Notes: generated by a model not told the origin, from the sequence alone. Counted from the first letter of the stretch, positions 12,329-27,746 are shown. The stretch is 64,000 nt of DNA from an uncultured Alphaproteobacteria bacterium (GCA_944390915.1 CALXRS010000002.1:18707-82706); one strand, 5' to 3'. Program-made: numbers and translations.

Positions 12329-12590
12329 TTTTTTCTTTTTTATCGATATTTTCTTCCGTTATGGGAACACAACCGGTTTCCCGGCTCCATGTCAGACAGT
12401 CCTGTCGGCATTCCTGCCGCTCTTCGTCCCACACGCCGCCGTCTTCGCTCAGGCAACGGCCTTTATCATCATTCAACAAAAAAACAACATAACATATTCC
12501 GGCAATCACCGCCAGCCCTGCCGTAAAACACAACAGCCTGAAAAGCAGAAATAAAAGCCGTCCTGTCTTTTGCAAATTAATATTTGTCAT
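12318..12590 (-). CDS. Small membrane-anchored protein with a Cys-containing ectodomain (90 aa)
   Basis: Track ORF. TM helix LLFLLFRLLCFTAGLAVIAGICYVVFLL, then DDKGRCLSEDGGVWDEERQECRQDCLTWSRETGCVP (4 Cys). Its 3' end overlaps the putative lysozyme ATG by 11 nt. Confidence 0.55.
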   Translation of the reverse strand: MTNINLQKTGRLLFLLFRLLCFTAGLAVIAGICYVVFLLNDDKGRCLSEDGGVWDEERQECRQDCLTWSRETGCVPITEENIDKKEKNAL

Positions 12591-12804
12591 TTATTCCCTT
12601 TACTCTGAAAGAATGACACGCCTCCCGTGAATCGGAATATAAACCGCTCTCGGCTCGCTGTCTACCTGTTTTGTTAACTTGCTTGTCGTGCCGGCGGCAC
12701 CCGCATCGCCCCTGCGCCGCTTCCGTCCCACACGCCGCCGCTCATACCGCCCGCCCCGACCACACACGCCCCGTTTTTTCTTCTCTGCAGGCAAAAAAGC
12801 GCAT

Positions 12805-12842
12805 AAAAAAGCAAAAGAGAGGGGCAAATGTTGCCCCTCTCT
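12805..12842 (-). terminator. Rho-independent terminator of the pyruvate:ferredoxin oxidoreductase gene
   Basis: On the - strand: agagaggggca-acatt-tgcccctctct followed by tttgctttttt, 26 nt after the stop. Confidence 0.7.
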
Positions 12843-12867
12843 TACTTGTCGGAATTACCTAAACAGC

Positions 12868-15800
12868 TTATTCCGCCGCCGAAGAATCAGCTTCTTCCTC
12901 GACTTTGTATTCCGCCATATGTTCAAGCAGACTGCGCTTTTCCTTAACGTTTTCCTGAGCCTTGTTAAGCAGGGTCTCATAACGTTCCGGATTCATCTTG
13001 TTGACGATTTGGAAACGCGTTTCGTTTGCCATATAGTCGGAAAGCGGACGGCTCGGAGCCTTCGAGTCAAGCATCAACGGCGCCTTACCTTCTCTGATAT
13101 TTTCCGGATTGTAGCGGAACAGCGGCCAGCTGCCGGTTTCCACCGCGTTCTTCTGGTGCTGCAAACCGTCCGCCAGGTTAAAGCCCTGGGCAATACAGTG
13201 CGAATAGGCAATGATCAGCGACGGACCGTCATAGGCTTCCGCCTCGTTCAAAGCCTTAATCGTCTGCATGTCATTGGCACCGACGGAAATCTGCGCCACA
13301 TAGACATTGCCGTAAGACATGGCAATCATGCCCAAATCTTTTTTCGGCAGAGCCTTGCCGGCGGTGGCAAATTTGGCCGAAGCGCCCATCGGGGTGGCTT
13401 TCGACTGTTGGCCGCCGGTGTTGGAATACACGCCCGTGTCCATCACCAGAATGTTGATGTTTTTACCCGACGCAATGGCATGATCCAAACCGCCGAAACC
13501 GATATCATAGGCCCAGCCGTCGCCGCCCAGAATCCACACCGATTTCTTAATCAGATAATCGGCCAGCTCATTCAGGTGTTTGGCTTCTTCGCCGTCAACC
13601 GATTTCAGTTTTTCGCGCAGAGCTTTAACATTGTCGCGCTGGGCGTCAATCTCCACATCGTTTGACTGCGGATTGTTCAAAATCTTTTCGACAAGTTCGC
13701 CGCCGATTTTGTCTTTCAGATTTTCAAGCAGCTGTTTGGCAAAGGCCGTTTGCTGATCAATCGAAAATCTCATGCCGAGACCAAACTCCGCATTGTCCTC
13801 AAACAACGAGTTTGCCCAGGCCGGTCCATGACCTTTTTCGTCTTTGGCATAAGGCGTGGTCGGCAGGTTGCCCGAATAAATCGAAGAGCAGCCGGTCGCA
13901 TTGGCCACCACCATCCGATCGCCGAACAACTGGGTTAAAAGTTTGACATAAGGCGTTTCGCCGCAGCCGGCACAGGCGCCCGAAAATTCAAACAGCGGAC
14001 GAATCATCTGCGTGGTCTTCGGCAGGTTTTTGGCCACTTCCGTACGTTTTACGTAAGGCAGAGTTTCAAAGAAATTCCAGCAGGCAACCTGTTCTTCCAG
14101 ATGTTTTTCGATATGGTCCATATTGATGGCCTTTTTGTCCGGTTCGGCTTTGTTTTTCGCCGGGCAGGCGGAAACGCAGATGCCGCAACCGGTGCAGTCT
14201 TCCGGCGACATTTGCCAGATGAACCGTTTGCCGGCAAATTCCTTGCCTTTGTAGGCGGCGGACTTAAAGCCGGCCGGCGCGTTTTTCAGCTCTTCTTCGG
14301 AAGCAATCTTCATCCGGATAACGCCGTGCGGGCAAACCAGCGAACATTTGCCGCACTGGATGCAGGTATCGGCGTCCCAAACCGGAATTTCGGTTGCAAT
14401 GCAGCGTTTTTCATACTGGGTTGTACCGGTCGGCCAGGTGCCGTCGGCCACTTCCGCAAAAGCGGAAACGGGCAGTTCGTTGCCGCGGTCGGCAATCAGC
14501 TCGGCCGTCAGTTTTTTAACAAATTCCGGAGCATCGGCCGGCACCGGCGCCTGACGACGGAAGGTCGAGGTCACCGACGACGGATATTCCACTTTGTGCA
14601 GATGTGCAAGCGAGGCGTCAACGGCGGCAAAGTTCTTTTGCACGATGGCATCGCCCTTCTTGCTGTAGGTTTTCTTAATGGCATTCTTAATCTGCGCAAT
14701 GGCTTCGTCTTTCGGCAAAATGTTGGAAATGGCGAAGAAACAGGTCTGCATAACCGTGTTGATGCGCTGTCCCATACCGGTTTCGCGGGCAACTTCCACC
14801 GCGTTGATGCTGTAGAAATTGAGCTTTTTGGAAATAATCTCTTCCTGCACTTCAACCGGCAGATGGTTCCACACTTCGGCGGCATCATACGGCGCGTTCA
14901 ACAGGAAAGTGGCGCCCGGTTTGGCAATTTTCAAGATATCCACCTTGTTCATGAAGGGGAACTGGTGGCAGGCCACAAAATCCGCTTTGTTAATCAGATA
15001 GGCCGATTTAATCGGATTGTCCGAAAAACGCAGGTGCGACGTGGTCATCGAACCGGACTTGCGGGAGTCGTAAACAAAATAGCCCTGTCCGTATTTGCCG
15101 GCGTCTTCGGCAATAATCTTAATCGAGTTTTTGTTGGCGCCGACCGTGCCGTCCGCACCCAAACCGAAAAACACGGCGCGGACAACGTCTTTGGGTTCGG
15201 TGTCGATCGAGTCGTCAAACGCCAGCGATTTGTGGGTGACGTCATCGGTAATGCCGACCGAAAAACCGTTGATCGGCTGTGCGGCAAAACCGTTGTCGTA
15301 AACGGCCTTGACCATGCCCGGCGTAAATTCTTTGGACGACAGCCCGTAGCGGCCGCCGACGATTTTCGGCATATTGGCAATTTCGCCGTTGGCAAAAGCC
15401 TGGGTCAACGTGGCAACCACGTCAAGATAGAGCGGTTCGCCGATCGAGCCGGATTCCTTGGTGCGGTCGAGCACGGAAACGACTTTGACCGTGGCCGGCA
15501 AAACTTTCAGGAAAGATTTTTCCGGGAACGGACGATAGAGATGAACTTTCAAAACGCCGAGCTTGGAACCTTTGGCATTGAGATAGTCGATCGTTTCTTC
15601 AACCGTTTCGCCGCCCGAGCCCATAATCACGATAACCTGGTCGGCATCGGCTGCGCCGTAGTAGTCGACCACATGATACTGGCGGCCGGAAATTTTTGCA
15701 AACTTGTCCATCTCTTCCTGAACAATGCCCTCAACTTTGTTGTAATAGGAATTGCAGGCCTCGCGTCCCTGGAAGAACACATCCGGGTTCTGCGCCGTAC

Positions 15801-16452
15801 CGCGGATAACTGGAGCTTCCGGCCTGAGGGCGTGTTTGGCGTTGAAAGCATAGTCCACGCCTTCAAGCATAGCCCGCAGATCGTCATCGGAAAGCACTTT
15901 GATTTTTTTGATTTCGTGCGAGGTGCGGAAACCGTCGAAGAAATGCAGGAACGGCACGCGCGAACGCAAAGTGGAGGTCTGCGCGATGGCCGCCATGTCG
16001 TGGGCTTCCTGCACCGAATTGGAGGCCAGCATGGCAAAACCCGTCTGGCGGCAACCCATAACGTCGGTGTGGTCACCGAAAATCGACAACGCATGGTAGG
16101 CCAGCGAACGCGCCGCCACATGCATCACGAAAGGCGACAGCTCGCCGGCGATTTTGTACATATTGGGGATCATCAGGAGCAGCCCCTGAGAAGCGGTAAA
16201 GGTGGTGGTCAGCGCACCGGCCTGAATGGAACCGTGGCAGGCACCGGCAGCGCCGGCTTCGGACTGCATTTCCTGAACTTCGGGCACAACGCCCCACAGG
16301 TTTTTCTGTTTGGCGGCAGACCAGGCGTCGGCCCATTCGCCCATCGGCGACGACGGGGTAATCGGGTAGATGACGCAGACTTCGTTCATACGATGGGCAA
16401 CGGAGGCTGCGGCCTCGTTGCCGTCCATCATTTTCATTTTCACTTCTGACAT
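12868..16452 (-). CDS. nifJ: Pyruvate:ferredoxin (flavodoxin) oxidoreductase, single-chain form
   Basis: 1194 aa. Two ferredoxin-type clusters (CIQCGKCSLVCPH, CTGCGICVSACP), a TPP-binding region (GGDGWAYDIGFGGLDH), and an N-terminus MDGNEAAASVAHRMNEVCVIYPITPSSPMGEW. Confidence 0.97.
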   Translation of the reverse strand: MSEVKMKMMDGNEAAASVAHRMNEVCVIYPITPSSPMGEWADAWSAAKQKNLWGVVPEVQEMQSEAGAAGACHGSIQAGALTTTFTASQGLLLMIPNMYKIAGELSPFVMHVAARSLAYHALSIFGDHTDVMGCRQTGFAMLASNSVQEAHDMAAIAQTSTLRSRVPFLHFFDGFRTSHEIKKIKVLSDDDLRAMLEGVDYAFNAKHALRPEAPVIRGTAQNPDVFFQGREACNSYYNKVEGIVQEEMDKFAKISGRQYHVVDYYGAADADQVIVIMGSGGETVEETIDYLNAKGSKLGVLKVHLYRPFPEKSFLKVLPATVKVVSVLDRTKESGSIGEPLYLDVVATLTQAFANGEIANMPKIVGGRYGLSSKEFTPGMVKAVYDNGFAAQPINGFSVGITDDVTHKSLAFDDSIDTEPKDVVRAVFFGLGADGTVGANKNSIKIIAEDAGKYGQGYFVYDSRKSGSMTTSHLRFSDNPIKSAYLINKADFVACHQFPFMNKVDILKIAKPGATFLLNAPYDAAEVWNHLPVEVQEEIISKKLNFYSINAVEVARETGMGQRINTVMQTCFFAISNILPKDEAIAQIKNAIKKTYSKKGDAIVQKNFAAVDASLAHLHKVEYPSSVTSTFRRQAPVPADAPEFVKKLTAELIADRGNELPVSAFAEVADGTWPTGTTQYEKRCIATEIPVWDADTCIQCGKCSLVCPHGVIRMKIASEEELKNAPAGFKSAAYKGKEFAGKRFIWQMSPEDCTGCGICVSACPAKNKAEPDKKAINMDHIEKHLEEQVACWNFFETLPYVKRTEVAKNLPKTTQMIRPLFEFSGACAGCGETPYVKLLTQLFGDRMVVANATGCSSIYSGNLPTTPYAKDEKGHGPAWANSLFEDNAEFGLGMRFSIDQQTAFAKQLLENLKDKIGGELVEKILNNPQSNDVEIDAQRDNVKALREKLKSVDGEEAKHLNELADYLIKKSVWILGGDGWAYDIGFGGLDHAIASGKNINILVMDTGVYSNTGGQQSKATPMGASAKFATAGKALPKKDLGMIAMSYGNVYVAQISVGANDMQTIKALNEAEAYDGPSLIIAYSHCIAQGFNLADGLQHQKNAVETGSWPLFRYNPENIREGKAPLMLDSKAPSRPLSDYMANETRFQIVNKMNPERYETLLNKAQENVKEKRSLLEHMAEYKVEEEADSSAAE

Positions 16453-16577
16453 ATCTTTTCCTTGTTAATGTTAAGCCGAGTAGAAAAAAAATTCTGCCGT
16501 TTCTATAGCACGGCAAAACGCAAAAATCCATCAAAAAATAACAGTTTTAAAGATATTTTTGCTTATTAACCTTATCT

Positions 16578-16606
16578 TTGCAAAATTCTGTTAAAGTTTG
16601 ATAAAT
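16578..16606 (+). promoter_or_regulatory. Candidate sigma-70-like promoter
   Basis: TTGCAA (16578-16583), 17-nt spacer, ATAAAT (16601-16606), upstream of the lipoprotein gene. Pattern match only. Confidence 0.3.
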
Positions 16607-16630
16607 AACAATTCAACCACCGAGGAAAAC

Positions 16631-16939
16631 ATGACATTGAAAATACTGGTCGCAACGGCCGTTTTATTGACCGCCGGCTGCACCGCGACAACCGCGGACA
16701 AAACCCCGCAGACTGAGAGCGGCAAACTCAACTCCTGCATGTTAAGCGAAATTTACGACCGCCGCGACAAAGGCAGCCTGCCCGCCGACGAATGGACCGC
16801 CGCGGCGGAAATTCTCAACACCTGCCTGAACCGCCTCGACATGCGGGAAAATCTGGCCGACCGTTCGCGCAGCATCAACATCGCCGCCAGTGTCATCCGC
16901 TCGCTGCAGGCGCCCTTCCCCGCCCGCGAAAAAGAATAG
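16631..16939 (+). CDS. Small lipoprotein (102 aa)
   Basis: The ATG at 16631 is preceded by GAGGA. Lipobox LLTAG|C in MTLKILVATAVLLTAGCTATTADK. Confidence 0.65.
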   Translation: MTLKILVATAVLLTAGCTATTADKTPQTESGKLNSCMLSEIYDRRDKGSLPADEWTAAAEILNTCLNRLDMRENLADRSRSINIAASVIRSLQAPFPAREKE

Positions 16940-16950
16940 GCGCAGCGAAA

Positions 16951-17682
16951 ATGGCCGGTTTCAGCGAAGATTATCTGCTCAACCGCAGGGTGCGCCTTTT
17001 TCAACCCGACGACGGCTACCGCGCGGCCGTTGACGCGGTGTTTCTGTCGGCGTTCGTCAACAGTGCGACGGCCGGCGAAAAAATACTTGACGTCGGTTCG
17101 GGCACCGGCGCCGTCTCTCTCTGTCTGGCTCATCGTTTTCCCGAATGCGACATTACCGGGCTTGAAATTCAGCCCCGACTGGTGGAGCTTTCCGCCCGAA
17201 GTGCCGCCGCCAACGGCTTTGCCAACCTGAGATACGTCAACTGCGACATCGGCAAACCCCTGCCGGGCATTGCCAACTGCAGCTTTCATCATGTCGTCAC
17301 CAATCCGCCTTACGGCAGCGGCGCCATGCCTTCGCCCAACCGCAGCAAAGCCGCCGCGCACGATTTCAGCGGTCTCGATCTGCCGGGCTGGATTGCCTTC
17401 TGCTTAAAAATGATGCGCCCAAAAGGCTGGCTTTACATGATAAACAAAACCGACGCTCTCGACACCATCCTCGCCTGCCTGCACGGCAAAACCGGCGCCA
17501 TTACCGTTTTTCCCCTGTATTCCAAGGCAAAACAGGCTACCGGCCGAGTTTTGGTACGCGCCCGCAAAGACAGCCGACAACCGACGGAAATTTTGCCGGG
17601 GCTGGTCGTTCACGATGACGACGGCAGCTACACCGACGCCGCGGAACGCATCCTTCGGCACGGCGAAAGCCTGATATTCTAA
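16951..17682 (+). CDS. SAM-dependent N6-adenine-type methyltransferase (TrmN6/YfiC-like)
   Basis: Internal ATG at 16951 (MAGFSEDYLLNRRVRLFQPDDGYR). SAM motif ILDVGSGTGAVSL and catalytic motif VVTNPPY. Confidence 0.8.
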   Translation: MAGFSEDYLLNRRVRLFQPDDGYRAAVDAVFLSAFVNSATAGEKILDVGSGTGAVSLCLAHRFPECDITGLEIQPRLVELSARSAAANGFANLRYVNCDIGKPLPGIANCSFHHVVTNPPYGSGAMPSPNRSKAAAHDFSGLDLPGWIAFCLKMMRPKGWLYMINKTDALDTILACLHGKTGAITVFPLYSKAKQATGRVLVRARKDSRQPTEILPGLVVHDDDGSYTDAAERILRHGESLIF

Positions 17683-18266
17683 GAATTGACAAGTTCGGAA
17701 AAATAAACCACGTCTTTGCCGTTTTCTTCCGCCCGTTGGAGAGCAAAAATAGCTTTGCCTACCAGAGTGTTCACGCTGTCGGCCGGGTTGTGCTCATACA
17801 AAACCGCGCCCATTTTGCACGACCGATGATAAACGCCGCCGGCGGCGGAAAGCGGTTTGGCAAGCGTTGATTTTATTTTTTCGATAATCACTTTGCCGTC
17901 TTCGCGACTTTCCAGATACGGCATCATCAGCCAAAACTGATAATTGATGCCGCGCGCCACCGTATAATTTTCGGGCAGCAGTTCAACCAGTTCTCTGGCC
18001 GTTTGCCGGATAACGTCGTCGCGGGCGGAACCTTCGGCAAAAGAGGCCAGATTTTCGATTTTTATGCCGACTACGGCAATTTTTAAGCGGCGCAACCGCA
18101 GGTTTTTTGCTTTTTCGTTGGTCAAAGCAACCTGCAACCGGTCTTCAAACAGATTAAAACTCGGCAGGCCGGTCAACCCGTCATACATGCATTCGGGATA
18201 ATCATCCGGTTTGGTGTAGCCGAAATTCATGCCGTCCGCCCCGCCGTTGTTTGTTTGCGCCATCAT
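17679..18266 (-). CDS. Stand-alone degenerate GGDEF-domain protein
   Basis: YDGLTGLPSFNLFEDRL marks the start of a GGDEF domain. The signature position reads ARGINYQF instead of RxGGDEF, and the DxD-type metal site region reads VGIKIENL. Confidence 0.7.
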   Translation of the reverse strand: MMAQTNNGGADGMNFGYTKPDDYPECMYDGLTGLPSFNLFEDRLQVALTNEKAKNLRLRRLKIAVVGIKIENLASFAEGSARDDVIRQTARELVELLPENYTVARGINYQFWLMMPYLESREDGKVIIEKIKSTLAKPLSAAGGVYHRSCKMGAVLYEHNPADSVNTLVGKAIFALQRAEENGKDVVYFSELVNS

Positions 18267-20251: not shown

Positions 20252-20331
20252 ATTTGCGAAAATAAAATTTGTGTTGTATAATCTTTTCTGATATATACAG
20301 TTTGTCTGCCAAATTGCAAGGATTTAAGTGG

Positions 20332-20625
20332 ATGCTGAAACTGAAAATACTCAAAGCGGCCGTGTTTGTCATGACTTTTCTGATCGTTTTCGGCCTGTTG
20401 TTTATTGTCGGCCGGCTGGCCGGAGCATTCGGCAAAACGGCGGCCGCCCGCAAACAGCCGCCGCAAACGGTTTCCCTGGGCGAAGAGGCCGGCAGCCGCA
20501 TAAAGCAGATAACGGCGGACGGCAAATATCTTTATCTGCTGACAACAGACGACAAGACCGCCGACAAAATCATTATTTTCGACACGGAAAAATTCCGGCG
20601 TGTTTCCGCCATCAACATTAATTGA
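20332..20625 (+). CDS. Cluster protein 1: small N-terminally anchored protein (97 aa)
   Basis: Internal ATG at 20332 of track ORF 20269..20625. TM AAVFVMTFLIVFGLLFIVG followed by a beta-rich tail (GKYLYLLTTDDKTADKIIIFD). Confidence 0.55.
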   Translation: MLKLKILKAAVFVMTFLIVFGLLFIVGRLAGAFGKTAAARKQPPQTVSLGEEAGSRIKQITADGKYLYLLTTDDKTADKIIIFDTEKFRRVSAININ

Positions 20626-20632
20626 GGTAAAA

Positions 20633-21547
20633 ATGAGCGAAGATTCCGAAGACATCATCAAAAAACTGACTGAAGACGTTCCCGATAACGCAACCGTTGC
20701 CCCTGTCGACGAAGACGAAGAATTCAACCTGCTGCTCGACAGTTTTATTCAGTCGGAACTGCAAAACATCGAAGAAGAAAAGCAAAATACGCGGATTATG
20801 CTGGAGGAACCGGAACCAAAACCGATTGAACAAAACGCAAGCGACGACGAAGTGGCGGACTCTCTCGAACTGGCCGAACAAAAACTTTATACGGCCTACC
20901 GCAACTATGTGGACTCCATTGCCGCCATTGCCGACACTCACAAACTGGCAATGCCGGTTTTTCACATTAAGGCGCAGGTTTTGTATCCGCGCTACACACC
21001 AAGCCTCGGCAACCTCATCAGCATCGACGTATTGCAGGGCTGGGACACGATGTTTGAGGCCTTTCCCGACGACATTCTCAAAATCAAGCCCAACGCCTCC
21101 GACGAAGAACTGCTCGACTTTGCCGAACAACATACGGACGAAAACCTGCAGATGGCCGTCGTTTCCTATGTGGAAATTCTGTTTGAAATCGAAGGCTGCG
21201 AAATCGCTTACGAAAAACGCCTGCTGGAATACGAACATCGCAAGATAGAAGAAGAAATCATCGCCGAACACAAAAAACGCGGCGAACGCGCCCGCAAATA
21301 TATCGACGCCGTCGAAAAGAAAAATTTTCCGATAAACGCCGAACGGTTGATTAACGGCTATTTCAAAACGGCTCTGAAAGATCCCGAAGGTTCGTTTGCG
21401 GCGCTAACCACCAATCCGGCGATTTTTGCCCCGATAGAAATCGACAAAATCAAACCGCGCTTTTTCGGGCTCATCAAACCCACTCCGCGCGACGGACTGA
21501 TATATAACCGCAAGATAGGCGACTTTCTGAAAAAACTGAAAATTTGA
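20633..21547 (+). CDS. Cluster protein 2: acidic hydrophilic protein (304 aa)
   Basis: The ATG at 20633 is preceded by GAGGT and lies 7 nt after the stop of protein 1. Asp/Glu-rich N-terminus (MSEDSEDIIKKLTEDVPDN...DEDEEF). No TM segment and no recognised family. Confidence 0.6.
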   Translation: MSEDSEDIIKKLTEDVPDNATVAPVDEDEEFNLLLDSFIQSELQNIEEEKQNTRIMLEEPEPKPIEQNASDDEVADSLELAEQKLYTAYRNYVDSIAAIADTHKLAMPVFHIKAQVLYPRYTPSLGNLISIDVLQGWDTMFEAFPDDILKIKPNASDEELLDFAEQHTDENLQMAVVSYVEILFEIEGCEIAYEKRLLEYEHRKIEEEIIAEHKKRGERARKYIDAVEKKNFPINAERLINGYFKTALKDPEGSFAALTTNPAIFAPIEIDKIKPRFFGLIKPTPRDGLIYNRKIGDFLKKLKI

Positions 21548-21652
21548 CGACGGCGGCAAATTTGCAGAAAAATATAGACAAAATAAAAAAACAATGATAC
21601 TATTCCGATAAGAGTTGTTACTGTTTTTTTGAAAAAGACAAGGACGAGAAAA

Positions 21653-23398
21653 ATGGCACCAGAAGAAAAAACATCCGTGGAAATTTCGGAAGAACCGAAA
21701 AGCGCCCCCCGGGAATCGGAAAATACGGCACAGGCGGCTCCCGCGCAAGAAACTTCCGCTCCGGACAAAAGCTCCGACCAACCGGCGCTGACCGTCAGCC
21801 AGGGATCGAAAGACCCGATTTTAAGATTAGAGGAACTGAAAGGGAAACAATATCAGGGCGCGCTGACCATTGATGAAGCAAACGAACTGGCAAACCTGCA
21901 AAAACAGCAGGATGCTCAGGGACTGACCAAGCAGAAGCGAGACAATCGCAAACGCAAAAAAGTCAAACCCCAGGATTTCAAACCGGATGACGTCATCAAC
22001 TATATGTACGAACAATGGTTGCTGAAGCTCTTTACGAGAGCCGGCGCCAAGATTGAGGAAGTGGTAACCAACGGCGCCTATAAGCTGGAAGACCTCTACT
22101 ATAACAAGTTGCGAGAAAAGGCAAGCTCAGATACGCGTTATGCCGGCACCAATGCCTGCAAAAACTCCATAAGCGTTTCCGACATGCTGCGGCAAACCAG
22201 AAAAAACCTGGATCAACGCAGTTCCGGACAATTGGATGAAATCAACCGGCTGAGTAAACTCATCGGTGAAGGCAAAATGTCATCCGCTTCCGCCACCGAC
22301 CTGCTGGCGTTGTGCAAATGCATGAACATTCCCGCTTCCGAGGCGCAAAACAATCCGCAAATAAAAGCCATCGTTCAGGATTCGCTGGTCTACAAAGAAA
22401 AGCGGGAAGCCGTCTACAAAAACCTCGGCCTCACTCCCGAAGAAGTGGAAAAAAATCCTTATGCCTACAAAGATAAAATGAACCGGCTGAAAAACGCTCC
22501 GGACAAAAGCGACCTTTACCAGCAAACAAAAACGCTGGAAAAGGAAATGGCGGCGGCCAAAACCAACCTTGCCAAGCACGGCATGAGGTTTTCGCTTCAG
22601 CAAACACGAAACTTAACTTACGATACCTTTCTTGATCATACGGCTCTGATGATGAGCGCGGCGCAGATAACCGACAAAAACGCCCGCGACGGCAACGCCT
22701 TTGCCGGCAAAGACATCAAAGAAGTTTTTTCCGCCACGTTGGAAAGCAACCGCGCCACGCTCCGCGAGGCGACGGCCGAAGAAAAAAAGGCTTATGTCAG
22801 CGGCCAAAAAACGACAAACAAGGGACTTGCCATCAACGGCTATTACCAAATGGCTCAGATGGCGCACATCAACGCCTCTCACGCCGTTAACCAAAGAAAG
22901 ATAGCGGAAATGGACGCCAAAACGCCGGCAAACAAGTCTCTCGACCGACTGATCAAAATGGTGAACGAACAACGCAAAACACAACAAATGCCGGATATGG
23001 AACAGGTGGAAAAAAGCGTGCAGGCGGCCAAAGAAGAAAAACGGCAGTTTATGCAGGAATCTTCGGCAAACGCCGCGCCAAACACAGCCGCCGGCGCGCC
23101 GCGTGATCTTCGCGAAGAAGCCGCCGACGAACAAAGCGCCGCCAGCAGTTTGCAAGCCCGAAGCGACAAATTGCAACAAAAAAGAACCGCTCTGAAACAA
23201 AGGGAAGACGCGCACAACAATTCGCCGATTGCCGCCAGACTGAGCAGATTTAAGGACAATATTAAATCGAAAGCGAAAGAAGCGTACCAGAACAACCAAA
23301 TTAAAAACGAACTCGGCCAGTTGAACGATTTGGTCAAAAACAATTTCAACGGTTTTGACGGCGCGTTCATTCCCAAAGGCAGATACGGATACGATTGA
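21653..23398 (+). CDS. Cluster protein 3: large hydrophilic Lys/Gln/Ala-rich protein (581 aa)
   Basis: The ATG at 21653 is preceded by AAGGACGAG. No TM segments. Composition looks long-helical or coiled-coil. No recognised family. Confidence 0.6.
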   Translation: MAPEEKTSVEISEEPKSAPRESENTAQAAPAQETSAPDKSSDQPALTVSQGSKDPILRLEELKGKQYQGALTIDEANELANLQKQQDAQGLTKQKRDNRKRKKVKPQDFKPDDVINYMYEQWLLKLFTRAGAKIEEVVTNGAYKLEDLYYNKLREKASSDTRYAGTNACKNSISVSDMLRQTRKNLDQRSSGQLDEINRLSKLIGEGKMSSASATDLLALCKCMNIPASEAQNNPQIKAIVQDSLVYKEKREAVYKNLGLTPEEVEKNPYAYKDKMNRLKNAPDKSDLYQQTKTLEKEMAAAKTNLAKHGMRFSLQQTRNLTYDTFLDHTALMMSAAQITDKNARDGNAFAGKDIKEVFSATLESNRATLREATAEEKKAYVSGQKTTNKGLAINGYYQMAQMAHINASHAVNQRKIAEMDAKTPANKSLDRLIKMVNEQRKTQQMPDMEQVEKSVQAAKEEKRQFMQESSANAAPNTAAGAPRDLREEAADEQSAASSLQARSDKLQQKRTALKQREDAHNNSPIAARLSRFKDNIKSKAKEAYQNNQIKNELGQLNDLVKNNFNGFDGAFIPKGRYGYD

Positions 23399-23922
23399 TG
23401 AAAAAATTTACAAAATATCTGCGACTGCTGCTGATATTTGCCGGCTGGACGGCTCTTTATCTGTGGATTATCAGTCTGATAATGAGTTATTTTTGGCGCT
23501 TTAATATTTTTGAAAAACGCTACTGGCAGGTTATCGGCGAATTTTGGAGCGCCGGCGGGGTGATTGACCAACCGTCGGAATATATGTTTCTGCTGATGCT
23601 GATCTTAATTGTTCCGGTCTGGTTTTTCGGCTGGAAAAAAGCGCAAAAGCTGTCTTATGTCAAAATTATTTTCTTTCCCGTTTTTTGGTACAACGATTAT
23701 ATCGGCCGCAAATATGCCGGACAGCCGGGGCATGTCGTGCTGAAAAACATGGGCGGCGGCAAAATTAAAAAACAGACCCCGCAGCAGATGATGGAAGAAA
23801 TGATATCGAGCCGCATGCCGGCGGCAACCGAAAAAAAAGATCTTAATTCCAGCAAGATACGCGATAATTTTGCGCAAAAGAACCGCACGTTTCACGAAAA
23901 GGCACAGGCGGAAAACAAATAA
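23398..23922 (+). CDS. Cluster protein 4: polytopic membrane protein (174 aa), N-terminal domain paralogous to protein 5
   Basis: The ATG at 23398 shares 1 nt with the protein 3 stop (TGATG). Hydrophobic segments LLLIFAGWTALYLWIISLIM and YMFLLMLILIVPVWFFGW, then a basic tail. Confidence 0.6.
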   Translation: MKKFTKYLRLLLIFAGWTALYLWIISLIMSYFWRFNIFEKRYWQVIGEFWSAGGVIDQPSEYMFLLMLILIVPVWFFGWKKAQKLSYVKIIFFPVFWYNDYIGRKYAGQPGHVVLKNMGGGKIKKQTPQQMMEEMISSRMPAATEKKDLNSSKIRDNFAQKNRTFHEKAQAENK

Positions 23923-24004
23923 CCCGCAAAGGAAAACAAAAAAAAATAAAACACTTGTTAACATCTTATGCTTTAGAATAGGTAAAAATGATATGGAGAT
24001 ATAA

Positions 24005-25510
24005 TTGAAACCCTTACTGATACTGACCAGAATCATCATTGTCGGCCTGTTGTGGAGTGTTTTCTTTATGGAAAGCATTCGGGTTATCATGCTCCGCAAC
24101 TGGCATTTTGACATTTTAAACATGGAGCACTGGCAGATAGCCTGGGATTTGTGGCTCAATTCATGGGTTATTTCCGAACCCAAAGAATGGGCTTTTGTAT
24201 TAATTATCATCTCTTTCATTCCCTTGTGGTTTACGGGCTGGATTGCGCTCAGCCTGATTTCGTGGGGCAAGCTTTTCTGTTTTATCCTCACCCTGCCGTG
24301 GAAGCTGTTTAAGAATTTCTTCTACAAACCGGTCAAAATCATTACCACCAACACCGGGGTTACGCCGATTAAGCGAAAAAGATCCTACAAGGAAATCCGC
24401 CCGCGCGCGGTACGCCAACCGATCGGCGCCAACAGCGAGCTTGCACCGTCGCCCATCAGCATTCCGACGGTTTCGCCGATATTGTCCGTGCCCTCCGTCC
24501 CTTCCGCAGGTGTCTCTGCTCCGACGGCAGCCCCCGCCGCGGCGCCCAAAAACTTTGAGCATGCCCTGTTCAAATTTGATGACAATTTTGACGACATAGA
24601 TTTTGACATCGATTCGTTTGACGTGGAACCGCAAAAAGAAGAAAAACCGGCCGAACCCCGCAGCCGCAGAAATCAAAGTCGGAGCGAAGACGACTATGAA
24701 CCGCAGCGCCGCGAACGCAAAGACAATAACCGCAACCGCGAAACGCGCCGCGAACGCGAGGACGACCGCCGCCGCGAAGACAAAAGAGAAGAGCGGCGCG
24801 AAGACCGGAGAGAAGAGCGACGCGAGGACAAAAGAGAAGAACGCGCACGCGACCGTGATGACAACCGCAGAGAAAGCCGATATGACAAAGACCGCCGCGA
24901 AGACACTCGGGACAACCGCGGCAGAGGCGAACGCGGCGAAAGAAGCGAGCGCGGAGAAAGAAGCGAACGTGGCGAACGCGCCGCGCCGACGCAGATTTCC
25001 ACCCGCCAGCCGACCGGCTCCTGCATAGACATAATCAAACAAAAAGGTTACGAAGTTCTCAGCCGCGTCAGCATCAAAAACACGGTTGTCGACTATGTCG
25101 GCATCTCCGGCGACCGTATCTGTCTGTGTCTGCTCGACCGCGAACCTGGCGACTGGCTGGCCGACGAAGAGCGCTTTAACGACGAAGAACCTTTGTGGTT
25201 TTCGGAAAGTTCGCACAGAATTTCGCCGGTACGCAAAATAGACTTGGCAAAACAGGCTCTGCTTGATAAACTGGACAATGCGGAAATGAGCTTTACCGTT
25301 GACGCGTTCGTTGTTGTGCAGATAGGCAATATCATCAACGCCGAAGATATGTTCGATATCTGGAACGAATTAAACGTCAACGTTACCCGTATAGACAGAG
25401 GCACGCCCAAAGAGATAAAACTGTTTGCCCGCACCTTGCCCGAAGCGGAAAAAAGCATTTCAGCAGGAAAACTGGATAAAATCATGAAGCTTATTCGCAG
25501 CATGAATTAA
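24005..25510 (+). CDS. Cluster protein 5: membrane domain + Pro/Ser/Ala linker + hyper-charged R/E/D repeat tract + C-terminal globular domain (501 aa)
   Basis: TTG start at 24005 with GGAGA 8 nt upstream. This start is supported by alignment of TM1 with protein 4. aa ~210-326 are almost entirely R/E/D/K/N/S (REDKREERREDRREERREDKREER..GERGERSERGERSERGER). aa ~338-501 form an ordinary-composition domain. Confidence 0.65.
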   Translation: MKPLLILTRIIIVGLLWSVFFMESIRVIMLRNWHFDILNMEHWQIAWDLWLNSWVISEPKEWAFVLIIISFIPLWFTGWIALSLISWGKLFCFILTLPWKLFKNFFYKPVKIITTNTGVTPIKRKRSYKEIRPRAVRQPIGANSELAPSPISIPTVSPILSVPSVPSAGVSAPTAAPAAAPKNFEHALFKFDDNFDDIDFDIDSFDVEPQKEEKPAEPRSRRNQSRSEDDYEPQRRERKDNNRNRETRREREDDRRREDKREERREDRREERREDKREERARDRDDNRRESRYDKDRREDTRDNRGRGERGERSERGERSERGERAAPTQISTRQPTGSCIDIIKQKGYEVLSRVSIKNTVVDYVGISGDRICLCLLDREPGDWLADEERFNDEEPLWFSESSHRISPVRKIDLAKQALLDKLDNAEMSFTVDAFVVVQIGNIINAEDMFDIWNELNVNVTRIDRGTPKEIKLFARTLPEAEKSISAGKLDKIMKLIRSMN

Positions 25511-25523
25511 CGAGGAAAGACAA

Positions 25524-27710
25524 ATGGGGATACAAAAACGAGGAGAAGAATGGGAAGAATATGACCACGCCGTGCAATGGATGTCGCTTACCGTCATCAT
25601 TACGCTGCTGGTTACGATTTTTCTGGCCGTCATCGCCATGCCGCTCGGCTATATCATCGGCAACGGCATTTCCAAAGAATCGATGGATAACGTCGGCAAA
25701 TTCATGGGGATGATTTTTAACGACCCGTCTTATCTGTTTTCGCGTTACTGGAACTGGATGCGCCAAATCGGCAACTATCACGGACAGTTCAGCTTTTCGC
25801 TGTGGCTGCCGGTGTTGCCTCTTATTTCTCTGCCGCTCGGTCTGATTATCGGAGCGGTTACCAACCCGTACCGTTTTCAATCCAACATTCACGGTTCCGG
25901 CCGCATCGCCACCTTAAAAGACATCAAAGCCATGAAGCTTCTGGATGGTTTTTGCATGGTTATCGGCAAATTCAAAGGCTACTACCTCAAGCTGCCGGAA
26001 ACGCTGTCCACCCTGTGCTGCGCTCCTCCGGGTACCGGTAAAACCGCCGGCGTGGTTATTCCGACGATTTTCAACTCCAAAGGCTTAAGCCTCGTGATTA
26101 ACGACCCTAAGCCGGAGCTTTGTTTTAACACCTCCGGCGCACGCGCCAAGGAAGGCCCCGTATTCATCATCAATTGGGGCGCCGAAGACAACCCGGCGGA
26201 AGGTATTTATTACCCGAGCTGGAACCCGCTGTCGCCGACGGCTCTTCCGGCACAGGGGCCGGCTCGCGACATGTATATCGACTCCATGTGCAATATTCTG
26301 GTGGAAGATCCGAAGGGCGGCGCCGATCCGCACTGGTCGCAAACAGGCCGCGCCGCGCTTACGGGCTTTATCCATTTTATTTCTTCAAAATGCGAAAAAG
26401 CCCGCGCCAACGATTATTTTATCGGTCGGGTATACGAAGGCAAACTGGATGACGAAGACAAGCAGGTGCTTGAGGGTTATTATGACGACATCAAACTGCA
26501 CAATCCGGCGGCGGCTCGCGCCATCAACGATTTGCGCAACAATACCCTTACCGTCGAAAATTACGTGCCGATCGGCACCTGGGATCTGCTGCCCGAAAAA
26601 TGGGTCGGCCGCGAAGCCTGCATCGCCATGGTGATGGAATGGCTGACCGAAGCACAAATTAAACAAGGACAGGAAATTAAACGCCGCTTGGCCGAAGGCG
26701 ACCAAATGGCCGCCATGGCCGACCCCATGCGCGATTTGTTGGACGCGGCCGTGGAAGAAGCCCGCAAATACGGCTATTCGCAGCGCGCCTATACGGAGCT
26801 TTCGTCGTTGAGCAACATGCCCGACAAAGAACGCGGTTCGGTGATGTCAACGGCCTTTGCCGGTATCGGCGTGTTCAAAAACTCGGCCGTAGTTTCGCGC
26901 ACCAGTTTTTCGGACTTGCAGTTCAAGGATTTGCGCGGCATCAAAGATCCGATTACCGGAGAATGGAAGCCGATTTCGGTATATCTGTCGATTAACCAGG
27001 TGGATGCGCGAGCCTTGGGCGTTATCAGCGGTATTTTCATCGAACTGATGTCGTCTTATCTCATCTCCAACCCGCCGAATTATGTGAACGCCACCGACGG
27101 CAAAATGGGACCTTTTCCCGCTCTGTTTGTTCTGGACGAATTTCCGCAGATGCCCAAACTGAAAGCGGTTATCGACGGTCCGGCCGTCGGCCGCGGACAA
27201 AAAGTTTCGTATCTGCTGATCGGACAAGACCTGGGACAAATTTCCGGCAAATACGGCAAAGACGACCTGGAAACGGTGATATCGACCACCGCCTGCAAAA
27301 TTATCTTGTCGCAAAACAACGAAGTAACGGCGCAGCGTTTTTCCAAAATGATAGGCAACAAGACGGTGCAGACGTCTTCTTACTCCAGACAGGAAGGCTT
27401 TACCAAACAGGCCAACCCGTTTGCCAAAAACGTGAACTACCAACTGCAGGGCGTATCGGTGATTACCTCTTCCCAACTGCTGAGCTTGCCCATGCTCAAA
27501 CAGGTTGTTCTCTTCCAAAGCTATATCGACCGACCGATTTTGGCCGATTCGCCGCGGTGGTATCTGGATCCGAAGATGCGGGCTTTGGCCAAACTGCCGA
27601 CCGCACCCAATGTTCCGGAATGGATTGTGGCTCAACGCGAGGACATCAACGACAATATGTTGGAAAAGTTGGGTTTAACCGACGAAGAAGGCGCCGAAGG
27701 AACGGCCTGA
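25524..27710 (+). CDS. Type IV secretion coupling protein (VirD4/TraG-family ATPase)
   Basis: Two N-terminal TM helices, then IHGSGRIATLKDI. Walker A in LCCAPPGTGKTAGVVIPT, followed by LVINDPKPEL, DPHWSQTGRAALTGFI, Walker B in ALFVLDEFPQMPKL, and GRGQKVSYLLIGQDLGQISGKYG. This motif order matches my memory of TraG/VirD4 proteins. RBS GAGGAAAG precedes the start. Confidence 0.85.
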   Translation: MGIQKRGEEWEEYDHAVQWMSLTVIITLLVTIFLAVIAMPLGYIIGNGISKESMDNVGKFMGMIFNDPSYLFSRYWNWMRQIGNYHGQFSFSLWLPVLPLISLPLGLIIGAVTNPYRFQSNIHGSGRIATLKDIKAMKLLDGFCMVIGKFKGYYLKLPETLSTLCCAPPGTGKTAGVVIPTIFNSKGLSLVINDPKPELCFNTSGARAKEGPVFIINWGAEDNPAEGIYYPSWNPLSPTALPAQGPARDMYIDSMCNILVEDPKGGADPHWSQTGRAALTGFIHFISSKCEKARANDYFIGRVYEGKLDDEDKQVLEGYYDDIKLHNPAAARAINDLRNNTLTVENYVPIGTWDLLPEKWVGREACIAMVMEWLTEAQIKQGQEIKRRLAEGDQMAAMADPMRDLLDAAVEEARKYGYSQRAYTELSSLSNMPDKERGSVMSTAFAGIGVFKNSAVVSRTSFSDLQFKDLRGIKDPITGEWKPISVYLSINQVDARALGVISGIFIELMSSYLISNPPNYVNATDGKMGPFPALFVLDEFPQMPKLKAVIDGPAVGRGQKVSYLLIGQDLGQISGKYGKDDLETVISTTACKIILSQNNEVTAQRFSKMIGNKTVQTSSYSRQEGFTKQANPFAKNVNYQLQGVSVITSSQLLSLPMLKQVVLFQSYIDRPILADSPRWYLDPKMRALAKLPTAPNVPEWIVAQREDINDNMLEKLGLTDEEGAEGTA

Positions 27711-27717
27711 AAATCCC

Positions 27718-27746
27718 AAAGCCCCGAAAAATCGGGGCTTTGTTTT
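27718..27746. terminator. Rho-independent terminator (between the convergent coupling-protein and arsR-like genes)
   Basis: aaagccccga-aaaa-tcggggcttt-gtttt. Confidence 0.65.

What the first reader, a model, noticed from the sequence alone, without database searches (positions are those of the whole stretch)
20332..27710. Orphan VirD4/TraG-type coupling ATPase closing a six-gene cluster of unrecognisable proteins, set between core genes
Six same-strand ORFs form what looks like one operon. The junctions are a 7-nt gap, a 105-nt gap, a 1-nt overlap, an 82-nt gap and a 13-nt gap, with a terminator after the last gene. The last gene is a clear type IV coupling protein with two TM helices, Walker A PGTGKT, Walker B VLDEF and the usual TraG/VirD4 motif order.

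Nothing else expected of a conjugative or effector-translocating type IV system is present in the 64 kb. There is no VirB/Trb/Dot channel gene, relaxase, integrase or partition gene. The flanks are core genes (rluD-rpoH on one side, arsR-like and xseB-ispA on the other).

The five partner proteins are a 97-aa anchored protein, a 304-aa acidic protein, a 581-aa hydrophilic helical protein, and two membrane proteins with paralogous N-terminal domains. I cannot assign any of them to a known Tra/Vir/Dot/Icm family.

A membrane protein directly upstream of the coupling protein recalls icmP(dotM)-icmO(dotL) in type IVB systems, and acidic proteins recall coupling-protein adaptors. That parallel is analogy only. 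The cluster could be a new coupling-protein-centred membrane machine, or the coupling-complex half of a dispersed secretion system.
Basis: partly seen in the sequence, partly recalled or inferred. Interest (0 to 1): 0.8.

Follow-up and report, generated by a model that had tools for sequence, protein, structure and literature searches.

The report
Conserved chromosomal VirD4 coupling-protein module
A type IV secretion coupling ATPase and four uncharacterised partner genes form a vertically inherited chromosomal module in uncultured gut Alphaproteobacteria, and it is most likely the substrate-recruiting part of a secretion system whose channel genes lie elsewhere in the genome.

Summary
Six same-strand ORFs at 20332-27710 end in a genuine VirD4/TraG coupling protein (T4CP). 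No channel gene, relaxase, integrase or tRNA lies in the 64 kb.

It is not a mobile-element remnant. In 80 species-level genomes of gut Alphaproteobacteria, the order rpoH-rluD-p1-p2-p3-p4-p5-T4CP is colinear in 74 of 75 testable loci. The T4CP (75-95% identity) is more conserved than RpoH in 72 of 72 loci.

- p1 is a separate DUF6476 gene.
- p4 and p5 share a two-helix membrane domain.
- p5 ends in a NERD/restriction-endonuclease-like domain with a 30-residue acidic loop that is almost fully invariant.
- p3 is hypervariable and hydrophilic, with a positively charged C-terminal tail.

The nearest plasmid T4CPs close complete VirB operons. In one relative (L133), p5-like and T4CP genes lie beside VirB7-8-9-10. 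Other Alphaproteobacteria MAGs carry Rickettsia-like VirB islets without a T4CP.

Best reading (confidence 0.6): this is the coupling and substrate-recruitment part of a dispersed chromosomal type IV secretion system, with new accessory proteins. I could not show a VirB channel in the window's own family, so a stand-alone machine remains possible (about 0.2).

The parts
20254..20282 (+). Promoter-like site (TTGCGA-17-TATAAT, 10 of 12 matches) upstream of p1, in the divergent rluD/p1 intergenic region
   Evidence: This is a consensus match only, and function is inferred.
20332..20625 (+). p1: 97-aa single-pass membrane protein of Pfam DUF6476. Probably a housekeeping neighbour of rluD, co-transcribed by position and not part of the T4CP module.
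   Evidence: PF20082, E = 3.5e-7, 30.5 bits against a cut-off of 24. One hydrophobic helix at residues 9-27. Present next to rluD in 69 of 80 species. Absent from the module in group A relatives L094 and L098.
20633..21547 (+). p2: 304-aa acidic (net charge -25), all-helical cytoplasmic protein with no known family. Candidate adaptor or chaperone of the coupling protein.
   Evidence: No significant family or PDB hit. Detected in 75 of 80 species at median 48% identity, with the C-terminal half best conserved. Also upstream of the T4CP in distant relatives L094 and L098 (HMM E about 5e-39). The single-sequence AF2 model is unusable (pLDDT 46).
21653..23398 (+). p3: 581-aa hydrophilic, cysteine-poor, hypervariable protein with no transmembrane segment. 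One short conserved motif (FKxxDxIxYMYxxWL, about residues 109-127, nt 21977-22033) and a positively charged C-terminal tail. Candidate secreted substrate.
   Evidence: An ORF of 437-727 aa always fills this slot. Identity is only 33% in the sister species, where the T4CP is 95% identical. Mean column identity is 14%. The last 30 aa are net positive in 92% of 74 orthologues (+2.7 against -0.3 expected). No Pfam family recurs.
23398..23922 (+). p4: 174-aa inner-membrane protein with two hydrophobic helices and a basic tail. Paralogue of the N-terminal domain of p5. Its start overlaps the p3 stop (ATGA).
   Evidence: BLASTP p4 against p5, E = 8e-16, 26% identity over 126 aa. Hydropathy. Present in 80 of 80 species. 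Invariant Trp residues W17, W33 and W50.
24005..25510 (+). p5: 501-aa inner-membrane protein in three parts. Residues 1-115 form a conserved Trp-rich two-TM domain. Residues about 120-335 form a disordered Pro-rich then Arg/Glu/Asp-rich linker. Residues 340-500 (nt 25022-25504) form a cytoplasmic NERD / restriction-endonuclease-like domain.
   Evidence: AF2 model with 114 sequences gives pLDDT above 90 for the C-terminal domain, with helix-strand-strand-strand-helix-strand order. The Foldseek top hits are PD-(D/E)xK folds: R2 RLE, AF1548, Nt.BspD6I, EndoMS and BstEII, with E from 7e-3 to 0.16. NERD PF08378 matches weakly in 15 of 39 orthologues and at 20.8 bits against a 22.1 cut-off in the L092 orthologue. 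D363 and D378 are invariant and E380 nearly invariant. Present in 80 of 80 species and in group A and L133 relatives.
25148..25237 (+). Conserved acidic loop of p5 (residues 382-411, GDWLADEERFNDEEPLWFSESSHRISPVRK), inserted after the third strand of the nuclease-like fold. Candidate docking element.
   Evidence: 27 of the 30 positions are invariant and the other three (P396, S402, I406) are conserved in at least 90% of 114 sequences that are only 47-80% identical overall. Lower pLDDT (57-71) than the rest of the domain, consistent with a flexible loop.
25524..27710 (+). VirD4/TraG-type type IV coupling protein (T4CP), 728 aa. Two N-terminal TM helices, P-loop PGTGKT (nt 26025-26045), Walker B LFVLDEF (nt 27123-27143), and a family-specific KCEKARANDY segment in the all-alpha region.
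   Evidence: Pfam and NCBIfam matches. Invariant K173 and D538. 75-95% identical in 80 species and more conserved than RpoH in 72 of 72 loci. The nearest plasmid relatives (33-37% identity) are the last gene of VirB2-B11 operons.
27717..27745 (.). Bidirectional intrinsic terminator hairpin between the convergent T4CP and arsR-like genes
   Evidence: Sequence. Fold of -24.7 kcal/mol, z = -4.87, with 0 of 200 shuffles as stable.

Best explanation
The run 20332-27710 consists of a housekeeping DUF6476 gene (p1) followed by a five-gene, vertically inherited coupling-protein module.

Shown:
- p6 is a VirD4/TraG-type T4CP with intact ATPase motifs.
- The module sits at a fixed chromosomal site beside rluD-rpoH in at least 80 species of uncultured gut Alphaproteobacteria (named in records as 'Azospirillum sp. 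51_20', CAG:495 and Ca. Scatocola).
- The T4CP evolves more slowly than RpoH.
- p4 and p5 share a two-TM domain.
- p5 carries a cytoplasmic NERD/restriction-endonuclease-like domain with an almost invariant acidic loop.
- p3 is hypervariable with a basic C-terminal tail.

Inferred:
- The T4CP hexamer sits in the inner membrane with p4 and p5.
- The p5 cytoplasmic domain and the acidic p2 form a substrate-recruitment platform. This would be analogous to, but not homologous with, DotM/DotN/IcmSW around DotL.
- p3 is a cargo recognised through its positively charged C-terminus.
- Cargo is handed to a VirB-type channel encoded elsewhere on the chromosome, as in the scattered Rickettsiales rvh system.
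For: - T4CP identity.
- Not mobile: no tRNA, integrase or relaxase; GC is unremarkable; colinear in 74 of 75 species; T4CP identity exceeds RpoH identity in 72 of 72 loci; no p5 relative in viral contigs.
- The closest annotated T4CPs (Microvirga and Erythrobacter plasmids, 33-37% identity) are the terminal gene of VirB2-VirB11 operons.
- In L133 (T4CP 50% identical) the gene order is p5-like, a 129-aa gene, T4CP, q1, q2, VirB7-like, VirB8, VirB9, giant VirB10.
- Chromosomal islets of the form VirB4...VirB8a-VirB7-VirB8b-VirB9-VirB10-VirB11 occur in Alphaproteobacteria MAGs, mostly of gut origin. None is followed by a T4CP. They are set among core genes, and their GC of 32-52% overlaps that of this family at 31-53%. 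These islets and the module are complementary halves.
- The order virB8a-virB7-virB8b and the scattering into islets match the Rickettsia rvh system (PMC2653234).
- p3 properties.
- p5 fold.
Against: - No VirB gene lies in the 64-kb window or within +/-10 kb of the T4CP in 157 of 158 related loci.
- I could not show that any genome of the window's own family (T4CP at least 75% identical) holds a VirB islet. Contig names, WGS prefixes and protein accessions of VirB9-bearing and module-bearing MAGs never coincided. The one pair of contigs from the same sample differs in GC (47% against 35%).
- The very abundant human sister species did not appear among the 120 best VirB9 hits.
- In Rickettsiales virD4 follows virB11, and here it does not.
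- The roles of p2-p5 are inferred from position, conservation and fold only.
- The p5 nuclease-like domain would fit DNA handling as well as protein docking.
Confidence: 0.6

Rival explanations
1. Stand-alone machine. In this family the VirB channel has been lost or was never coupled. The T4CP, with p4, p5 and p2, works on its own in the inner membrane as an ATP-driven translocase. For example, it could pump or process DNA with the membrane-tethered NERD-like domain of p5, or move p3 across or into the inner membrane.
For: No VirB gene lies near the module in the window or in 157 of 158 loci. The strongest conservation is in the T4CP and the p5 domain that always precedes it. p5 has a nuclease-related fold with three conserved acidic residues. 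T4CPs belong to the same ATPase superfamily as the DNA pumps FtsK and SpoIIIE (own knowledge). No VirB-bearing genome could be tied to this family.
Against: All characterised T4CPs work with a VirB4-containing channel (own knowledge). L133 joins the same p5-like and T4CP pair physically to VirB7-10. VirB islets without a T4CP exist in related MAGs and need a T4CP encoded elsewhere. The cluster contains no periplasmic or outer-membrane component.
Confidence: 0.2
2. Decayed remnant or edge of an integrative conjugative or mobilisable element.
For: T4CPs are typical of conjugative elements. Most plasmid hits to this T4CP are in conjugative plasmids (3525 of 4296).
Against: The module sits at the same chromosomal site and in the same order in 74 of 75 species. 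The T4CP is more conserved than RpoH in 72 of 72 loci. No tRNA, integrase, relaxase or compositional shift is present. ATPase motifs are intact. No relative occurs in viral contigs.
Confidence: 0.02
3. A defence or toxin system in which a T4CP-like ATPase and a nuclease-like membrane protein act against invading DNA, with p3 as a fast-evolving sensor or decoy.
For: p5 has a nuclease-like fold. p3 is hypervariable. The T4CP gives a weak PADLOC hit to mads_8 (E = 0.004). In many relatives a weak SUKH/SMI1-like gene (q2) follows the T4CP (E = 4e-4, below the cut-off).
Against: No significant PADLOC hit for any of the six proteins. Defence islands are patchy and mobile, whereas this module is fixed and universal in the family. 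The T4CP has the full VirD4 architecture including the TraG-D_C domain.
Confidence: 0.05

Closest known systems
Rickettsiales vir homolog (rvh) P-type T4SS 'archipelago' (Gillespie et al. 2009, PMC2653234)
   Same: It is a chromosomal, vertically inherited VirB/VirD4-type system split into islets among core genes, with a highly conserved VirD4. The VirB islets found in related MAGs share the virB8a-virB7-virB8b order and lack an adjacent pilus or relaxase module.
   Different: In Rickettsiales virD4 follows virB11, whereas here the T4CP has its own islet with four unrelated partner genes. VirB10 in the related MAGs is giant (1785-2831 aa). The hosts are probably free-living gut anaerobes (the window encodes PFOR, and relatives encode flagella), not obligate intracellular bacteria. 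A VirB islet has not been demonstrated in this family.
Legionella Dot/Icm coupling complex (DotL-DotM-DotN-IcmS-IcmW-LvgA)
   Same: Functional analogy only. A T4CP is encoded next to a small membrane protein with a cytoplasmic domain, together with acidic cytoplasmic proteins that could serve as adaptors.
   Different: p2-p5 show no sequence or profile similarity to DotM, DotN, IcmS, IcmW or LvgA families. The T4CP is of the VirD4/TraG type (PF02534), and its nearest relatives belong to type IVA VirB operons.
VirB/VirD4 operons of alphaproteobacterial megaplasmids (Microvirga pMVF16-3, Erythrobacter aureus plasmid)
   Same: These carry the closest annotated T4CP sequences (33-37% identity over 84-95% of the protein).
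   Different: There the T4CP is the last gene after VirB11 in a complete operon on a plasmid. No p2-p5 homologues are present.
Chromosomal bacteria-killing X-T4SS of Xanthomonas and Stenotrophomonas
   Same: A chromosomal VirD4 recruits protein effectors through a C-terminal signal. Effector and immunity genes lie near vir genes. Many relatives have a weak SUKH-like gene (q2) after the T4CP.
   Different: No XVIPCD or toxin domain was found in p3. q1 and q2 are absent from this window. The vir genes are not adjacent.
NERD / PD-(D/E)xK nuclease-related domains
   Same: The p5 C-terminal domain has the same core fold order and conserved acidic residues at the expected strands.
   Different: The domain is membrane-tethered and lacks the motif lysine (D...D-x-E instead of D...E-x-K). 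It carries a 30-residue, almost invariant acidic insertion. No match reaches a curated threshold.

Membership tests
Type IV coupling protein (VirD4/TraG, PF02534) | Match to the family profile above the curated threshold | tested here: met
   PF02534 at 197.5 bits against 20.1. PF12696 at 80.2 against 22. PF10412 at 62.1 against 20.5.
Type IV coupling protein (VirD4/TraG, PF02534) | N-terminal transmembrane domain and intact Walker A and Walker B motifs | tested here: met
   Hydrophobic helices at residues 20-38 and 91-109. PGTGKT with invariant K173, and LFVLDEF with invariant D538, across 14 diverse relatives.
Type IV coupling protein (VirD4/TraG, PF02534) | Equivalence to a named subfamily (VirD4, IncP TraG, Ti TraG, F TraD, SXT TraD) | tested here: not met
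   All NCBIfam equivalog and subfamily scores are far below their cut-offs (best 147.8 against 250, and 117.9 against 728). It is a distinct subfamily.
Type IV coupling protein (VirD4/TraG, PF02534) | A VirB4-containing T4SS in the same genome | not testable with these tools
   Absent from the 64-kb window and from +/-10 kb in 157 of 158 related loci. Whole genomes could not be scanned.
Integrative conjugative or mobilisable element | Integrase, relaxase, att/tRNA target, compositional anomaly and patchy distribution | tested here: not met
   No tRNA. Neighbours are all housekeeping by Pfam. GC is about 50%, like the flanks. The site is fixed in 74 of 75 species.
Rickettsiales-type scattered (rvh-like) P-T4SS | VirB genes in separate chromosomal islets with virB8a-virB7-virB8b duplication | tested here: inconclusive
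   Met in related Alphaproteobacteria MAGs (L167, L172, L175, L176, L189). Compared with PMC2653234. Not shown for a genome of the window's family.
Rickettsiales-type scattered (rvh-like) P-T4SS | virD4 located directly after virB11 | tested here: not met
   In the MAG islets VirB11 is followed by a lipase, a transposase or an autotransporter. In the window the T4CP follows p5.
Dot/Icm coupling complex partners (DotM, DotN, IcmS, IcmW, LvgA) | Sequence or profile similarity of p2-p5 to these families | tested here: not met
   No Pfam, NCBIfam or PDB sequence or profile hit.
NERD / PD-(D/E)xK nuclease superfamily (p5 C-terminal domain) | Profile match above threshold | tested here: inconclusive
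   NERD PF08378 matches weakly in 15 of 39 orthologues (best E = 0.009). The L092 orthologue scores 20.8 bits against a 22.1 cut-off. The window protein itself gives no hit.
NERD / PD-(D/E)xK nuclease superfamily (p5 C-terminal domain) | Core alpha-beta-beta-beta-alpha-beta fold | tested here: met
   AF2 gives pLDDT above 90 with the element order H340-346, E350-357, E360-367, E371-378, H408-425, E431-438. The best Foldseek PDB hits are restriction-endonuclease-like domains, but E ranges from 7e-3 to 0.16 and none reaches 1e-3.
NERD / PD-(D/E)xK nuclease superfamily (p5 C-terminal domain) | Catalytic D...(D/E)-x-K motif | tested here: inconclusive
   D363 and D378 are invariant and E380 is nearly invariant, but the lysine position is E (D-x-E). 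BamHI also uses an all-acidic variant of this motif (own knowledge). Activity is untested.
DUF6476 (p1) | Pfam match above the gathering score | tested here: met
   30.5 bits against 24, covering 5-90 of 91 profile positions.

The most novel reading that the evidence does not exclude
In this family of gut Alphaproteobacteria no VirB channel exists. The VirD4-type ATPase, together with the p4/p5 membrane pair (p5 carrying a tethered NERD-like nuclease domain), acidic p2 and hypervariable p3, would then be an autonomous, essential-like inner-membrane machine. This would be the first coupling protein co-opted for a job outside type IV secretion, for example DNA processing or translocation at the membrane.
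Probability: 0.2. Interest if true: 0.85.

Novelty: new variant of a known kind. Interest (0 to 1): 0.55.

Why it matters
Coupling proteins decide what a type IV secretion system exports, and how they recognise cargo outside a few model systems is poorly known.

This coupling protein is held under stronger constraint than the heat-shock sigma factor across at least 80 species of abundant but uncultured gut Alphaproteobacteria. It is always paired with four proteins that no database recognises:
- a membrane-tethered nuclease-like domain with a 30-residue, almost invariant acidic loop
- its shorter membrane paralogue
- an acidic helical protein
- a hypervariable protein with a secretion-signal-like tail

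If the module feeds a Rickettsia-like scattered VirB system, two things follow:
- That architecture extends from obligate intracellular parasites to gut commensals.
- It offers a ready-made receptor, adaptor and cargo set to test.

If no channel exists, a coupling protein has been recruited to a new cellular function.

No paper linking these organisms (search terms RF32, CAG-239, CAG-495) to type IV secretion was found in the searched library.

Tried and rejected
**Searches on p2-p5 that found nothing significant**
- Pfam, NCBIfam, PADLOC and PHROGs.
- PDB sequence and PDB profile searches.
- The T4CP itself has no PDB relative by phmmer at E of 1e-3 or better.

**Fusion ('Rosetta stone') search.** HMMs of p2-p5 against 150 representative T4CPs, including members of 1000-1200 aa, gave no hit.

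**Homology of p2-p5 to genes flanking the plasmid T4CPs.** None was found.

**Structure of p2.** The single-sequence AF2 model has pLDDT 46, so no fold search was run on it.

**Attempts to place a VirB islet and the module in one genome**
- I compared contig lengths, then WGS prefixes and sample names, then NCBI protein accession proximity. None matched.
- The two BRZ_DM contigs come from different organisms (GC 47% against 35%).
- I tested a chain VirB11-FlaF-flg-p5-T4CP suggested by L133 and L172. L072 and L074 do have flgE-flgD-fliK beside the T4CP, but their contigs end before any VirB gene.

**Readings rejected or downgraded**
- ICE remnant: rejected.
- Phage origin: rejected.
- Defence system: no support.

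**Literature.** Four searches found no description of this module.

Full report
**1. What is in the sequence**

They are preceded by a strong sigma-70-like site at 20254-20282. They are closed by a bidirectional hairpin terminator at 27717-27745.

The last gene is a VirD4/TraG-type coupling protein (T4CP):
- PF02534 scores 197.5 bits, and TraG-D_C and TrwB_AAD_bind also match.
- It has two N-terminal hydrophobic helices.
- It has the P-loop PGTGKT and Walker B LFVLDEF, with K173 and D538 invariant among diverse relatives.
- It reaches no NCBIfam equivalog cut-off and has no PDB relative by phmmer. It is therefore a distinct subfamily.

The 64-kb window holds no tRNA and no Rfam match. It gives no tblastn hit to three sets of VirB proteins and no hit to VirB HMMs. 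The flanks are housekeeping genes: PFOR, rpoH, rluD, arsR-like, xseB, ispA, an RND efflux system and the mraY-ftsZ cluster. GC shows no discontinuity.

**2. Whose genome, and is the cluster mobile?**

T4CPs about 95% identical to the window's are extremely common in human-gut assemblies. They are named in records as 'Azospirillum sp. 51_20' or 'Alphaproteobacteria bacterium', and two contigs exceed 2 Mb. In that sister species the cluster and its neighbours are the same.

A scan of one genome per GTDB species found 484 species with the T4CP signature KxExAxANDY. The best 80 are 75-95% identical and are all uncultured gut Alphaproteobacteria, including CAG:495 and Ca. Scatocola.

Comparing the window's proteins with these 80 loci gave the following:
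- The order rluD(-), p1, p2, p3-slot, p4, p5, T4CP is colinear in 74 of 75 testable loci.
- Median identities are T4CP 78%, RpoH 71%, RluD 60%, p5 58% (best local segment), p2 48%, p1 38% and p4 34%.
- T4CP identity exceeds RpoH identity in 72 of 72 loci.
- The downstream arsR-xseB-ispA flank is kept in only 18 of 80.

No p5 relative occurs in viral contigs.

The module is therefore a vertically inherited chromosomal feature under strong purifying selection. It is not an ICE edge or remnant.

**3. The partner proteins**

*p1* is Pfam DUF6476. It always sits next to rluD, and it is absent where the module occurs away from rluD. I treat it as a neighbour, not a component.

*p2* is acidic (net charge -25), has no transmembrane segment, and is predicted helical, though only from a low-confidence single-sequence model. 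Its C-terminal half is well conserved. It also accompanies the T4CP in distant relatives L094 and L098. No family or PDB profile matches it. Only a single-sequence AF2 model was possible, and it is unusable (pLDDT 46).

*p3* is unusual:
- Every species has an ORF of 437-727 aa in that slot.
- Identity is only 33% in the sister species, where the T4CP is 95% identical. Mean column identity across 39 orthologues is 14%.
- Only a short motif (FKxxDxIxYMYxxWL, about residues 109-127) is conserved.
- It has no transmembrane segment, almost no cysteine, and is rich in K, E, A, N and Q.
- Its last 30 residues are net positive in 92% of 74 orthologues (+2.7 against -0.3 expected), and often end in G-R or G-G-R.
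- From my own knowledge, VirB/VirD4 substrates of Agrobacterium carry positively charged, Arg-rich C-terminal signals. Calling p3 a cargo is an inference from this resemblance and from its rate of change.

*p4 and p5* share an N-terminal Trp-rich two-TM domain (BLASTP E = 8e-16).

*p5* continues with a disordered Pro-rich then Arg/Glu/Asp-rich linker and a C-terminal domain (residues 340-500). With a 114-sequence alignment, this domain is modelled at pLDDT above 90.
- The best Foldseek hits to the PDB are restriction-endonuclease-like domains: the R2 RLE domain, AF1548, Nt.BspD6I, EndoMS and BstEII. E values are only 7e-3 to 0.16.
- Independently, 15 of 39 orthologues give weak NERD (PF08378) hits. 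A group A orthologue scores 20.8 bits against the 22.1 cut-off.
- D363 and D378 are invariant and E380 is nearly invariant. They lie where the PD-(D/E)xK acidic residues would, but the lysine is missing.
- Between the third strand and the next helix lies the 30-residue acidic loop GDWLADEERFNDEEPLWFSESSHRISPVRK. Of its 30 positions, 27 are invariant and three are at least 90% conserved in 114 sequences. It is the most conserved element of the whole cluster.
- The two-TM hairpin and the highly charged linker imply that this domain is cytoplasmic, like the T4CP ATPase domain. This is an inference.

**4. Links to a secretion channel**

The closest annotated T4CPs (33-37% identity) are on alphaproteobacterial megaplasmids. 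There they are the last gene of complete VirB2-VirB11 operons. No p2-p5 homologues are present there.

A metagenome scan recovered intermediate relatives:
- Group A (T4CP 56-67% identical) keeps a p5-like gene, and sometimes p4-like and p2-like genes, directly upstream of the T4CP.
- Group B (44-51% identical) has the T4CP alone in another chromosomal context.
- L133 (50% identical) has fliK-flgD-flgE, a p5-like gene, a 129-aa gene, the T4CP, q1, q2, a VirB7-like gene, VirB8 (PF04335, 5e-19), VirB9 (CagX, 7e-16) and a giant VirB10.

Two further genes follow the T4CP in many loci: q1 (about 200-350 aa) in 48 loci and q2 (about 145 aa) in 43. One q2 gives a weak SUKH/SMI1 match (E = 4e-4, below the cut-off). 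Neither follows the T4CP in the window's genus.

Searching with the L133 VirB9 and inspecting eight contexts showed chromosomal islets in Alphaproteobacteria MAGs:
- The order is VirB4, five unassigned genes, VirB8a, VirB7 (about 65 aa), VirB8b, VirB9, VirB10 of 1785-2831 aa, and VirB11.
- They are embedded among core genes such as a DEAD helicase, a tRNA synthetase and AsmA.
- None is followed by a T4CP.

The virB8a-virB7-virB8b order and the splitting into islets are the hallmarks of the Rickettsia rvh system (PMC2653234). The module here (T4CP without a channel) and these islets (channel without a T4CP) are complementary.

**5. What I could not show**

I could not scan a whole genome of the window's family. 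The VirB9-bearing contigs I looked up belong to other assemblies than the 80 module-bearing species. The one pair from the same sample differs in GC.

VirB9 loci span 32-60% GC and the family spans 31-53%, so overlap is possible but unproven.

Hence 'dispersed T4SS' is the best-supported reading (0.6) but not demonstrated. 'Stand-alone T4CP machine' keeps about 0.2.

**6. Comparison with known systems**

- The T4CP is a member of the VirD4/TraG family, with its defining features met.
- The module works most like the substrate-receptor subassembly of a type IVA system. Its organisation is closest to the rvh archipelago, except that virD4 is not next to virB11.
- The resemblance to DotL-DotM-IcmSW is analogy only. 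Membership was tested and not met.
- The p5 domain resembles NERD/PD-(D/E)xK nucleases in fold. Membership by profile and by motif is inconclusive.

**7. Verdict**

This is a new variant of a known kind: a conserved chromosomal coupling-protein module with four undescribed accessory proteins. Interest is moderate to high (0.55). It would rise sharply if complete genomes prove to lack a VirB channel.

Noticed in passing
L167 1-21126, L172 8281-20051, L187 9062-18281 and L189 8251-16806: Alphaproteobacteria MAGs, mostly of gut origin, carry chromosomal rvh-like islets (VirB8a-VirB7-VirB8b-VirB9-VirB10-VirB11, in L167 preceded by VirB4 and five unassigned genes). VirB10 is giant and repetitive, at 1785-2831 aa. 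Only its last 220 or so residues resemble ordinary VirB10 (34-39% identity).
   Followed up: partly
L024-L066 and many others at about 12300-13300, for example L094 12367-13875. Absent from the window.: In many relatives two more genes follow the T4CP: q1 (about 200-350 aa, variable) in 48 loci and q2 (about 145 aa) in 43. One q2 gives a weak SUKH/SMI1 immunity-like hit (E = 4e-4). The window's genus has arsR-xseB there instead.
   Followed up: partly
L071 2400-10000: One species (SIG57) shows a tandem duplication of the p2-p3 pair (ORFs of 282, 533, 134, 282 and 533 aa) upstream of p4-p5-T4CP. It could be real or an assembly artefact.
   Followed up: no
L072 and L074 at about 12360-17400, and L133 2218-8079: Flagellar hook genes (flgE, flgD, fliK) lie directly beside the T4CP module in two species of the family and in L133. 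FlaF lies next to VirB11 in L172. This may be a trace of an ancestral joint locus.
   Followed up: partly
L085 (Microvirga pMVF16-3) and L086 (Erythrobacter aureus plasmid): Megaplasmids typed 'non-mobilizable' carry complete VirB/VirD4 operons. The operons lie next to Rad52-family, topoisomerase III, primase-like (CHC2), SSB and DnaB-like genes, with no annotated relaxase in the stretch.
   Followed up: no
window 51773-52321 (+): A 182-aa ORF starts with a prepilin-type N-terminus (MKKTENENGYTLIESLMFIGVV...), suggesting a type IV pilin or pseudopilin gene.
   Followed up: no
window 59558-63886 (-): A very long ORF (1323-1442 aa depending on the start) lies at the window's 3' end in a lower-GC stretch (43-45%). 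It was not characterised.
   Followed up: no
window 17679-18266 (-): A 195-aa ORF between the methyltransferase and rpoH has no precomputed Pfam hit in the sister species. It contains a 'DGLTGLP' motif reminiscent of the start of GGDEF domains.
   Followed up: no
L065 (JAISVX010000003.1, 829 kb): A contig labelled 'MAG: Lactobacillaceae bacterium' carries the complete alphaproteobacterial rpoH-rluD-module arrangement (T4CP 77% identical). The MAG is probably mislabelled or mis-binned.
   Followed up: no
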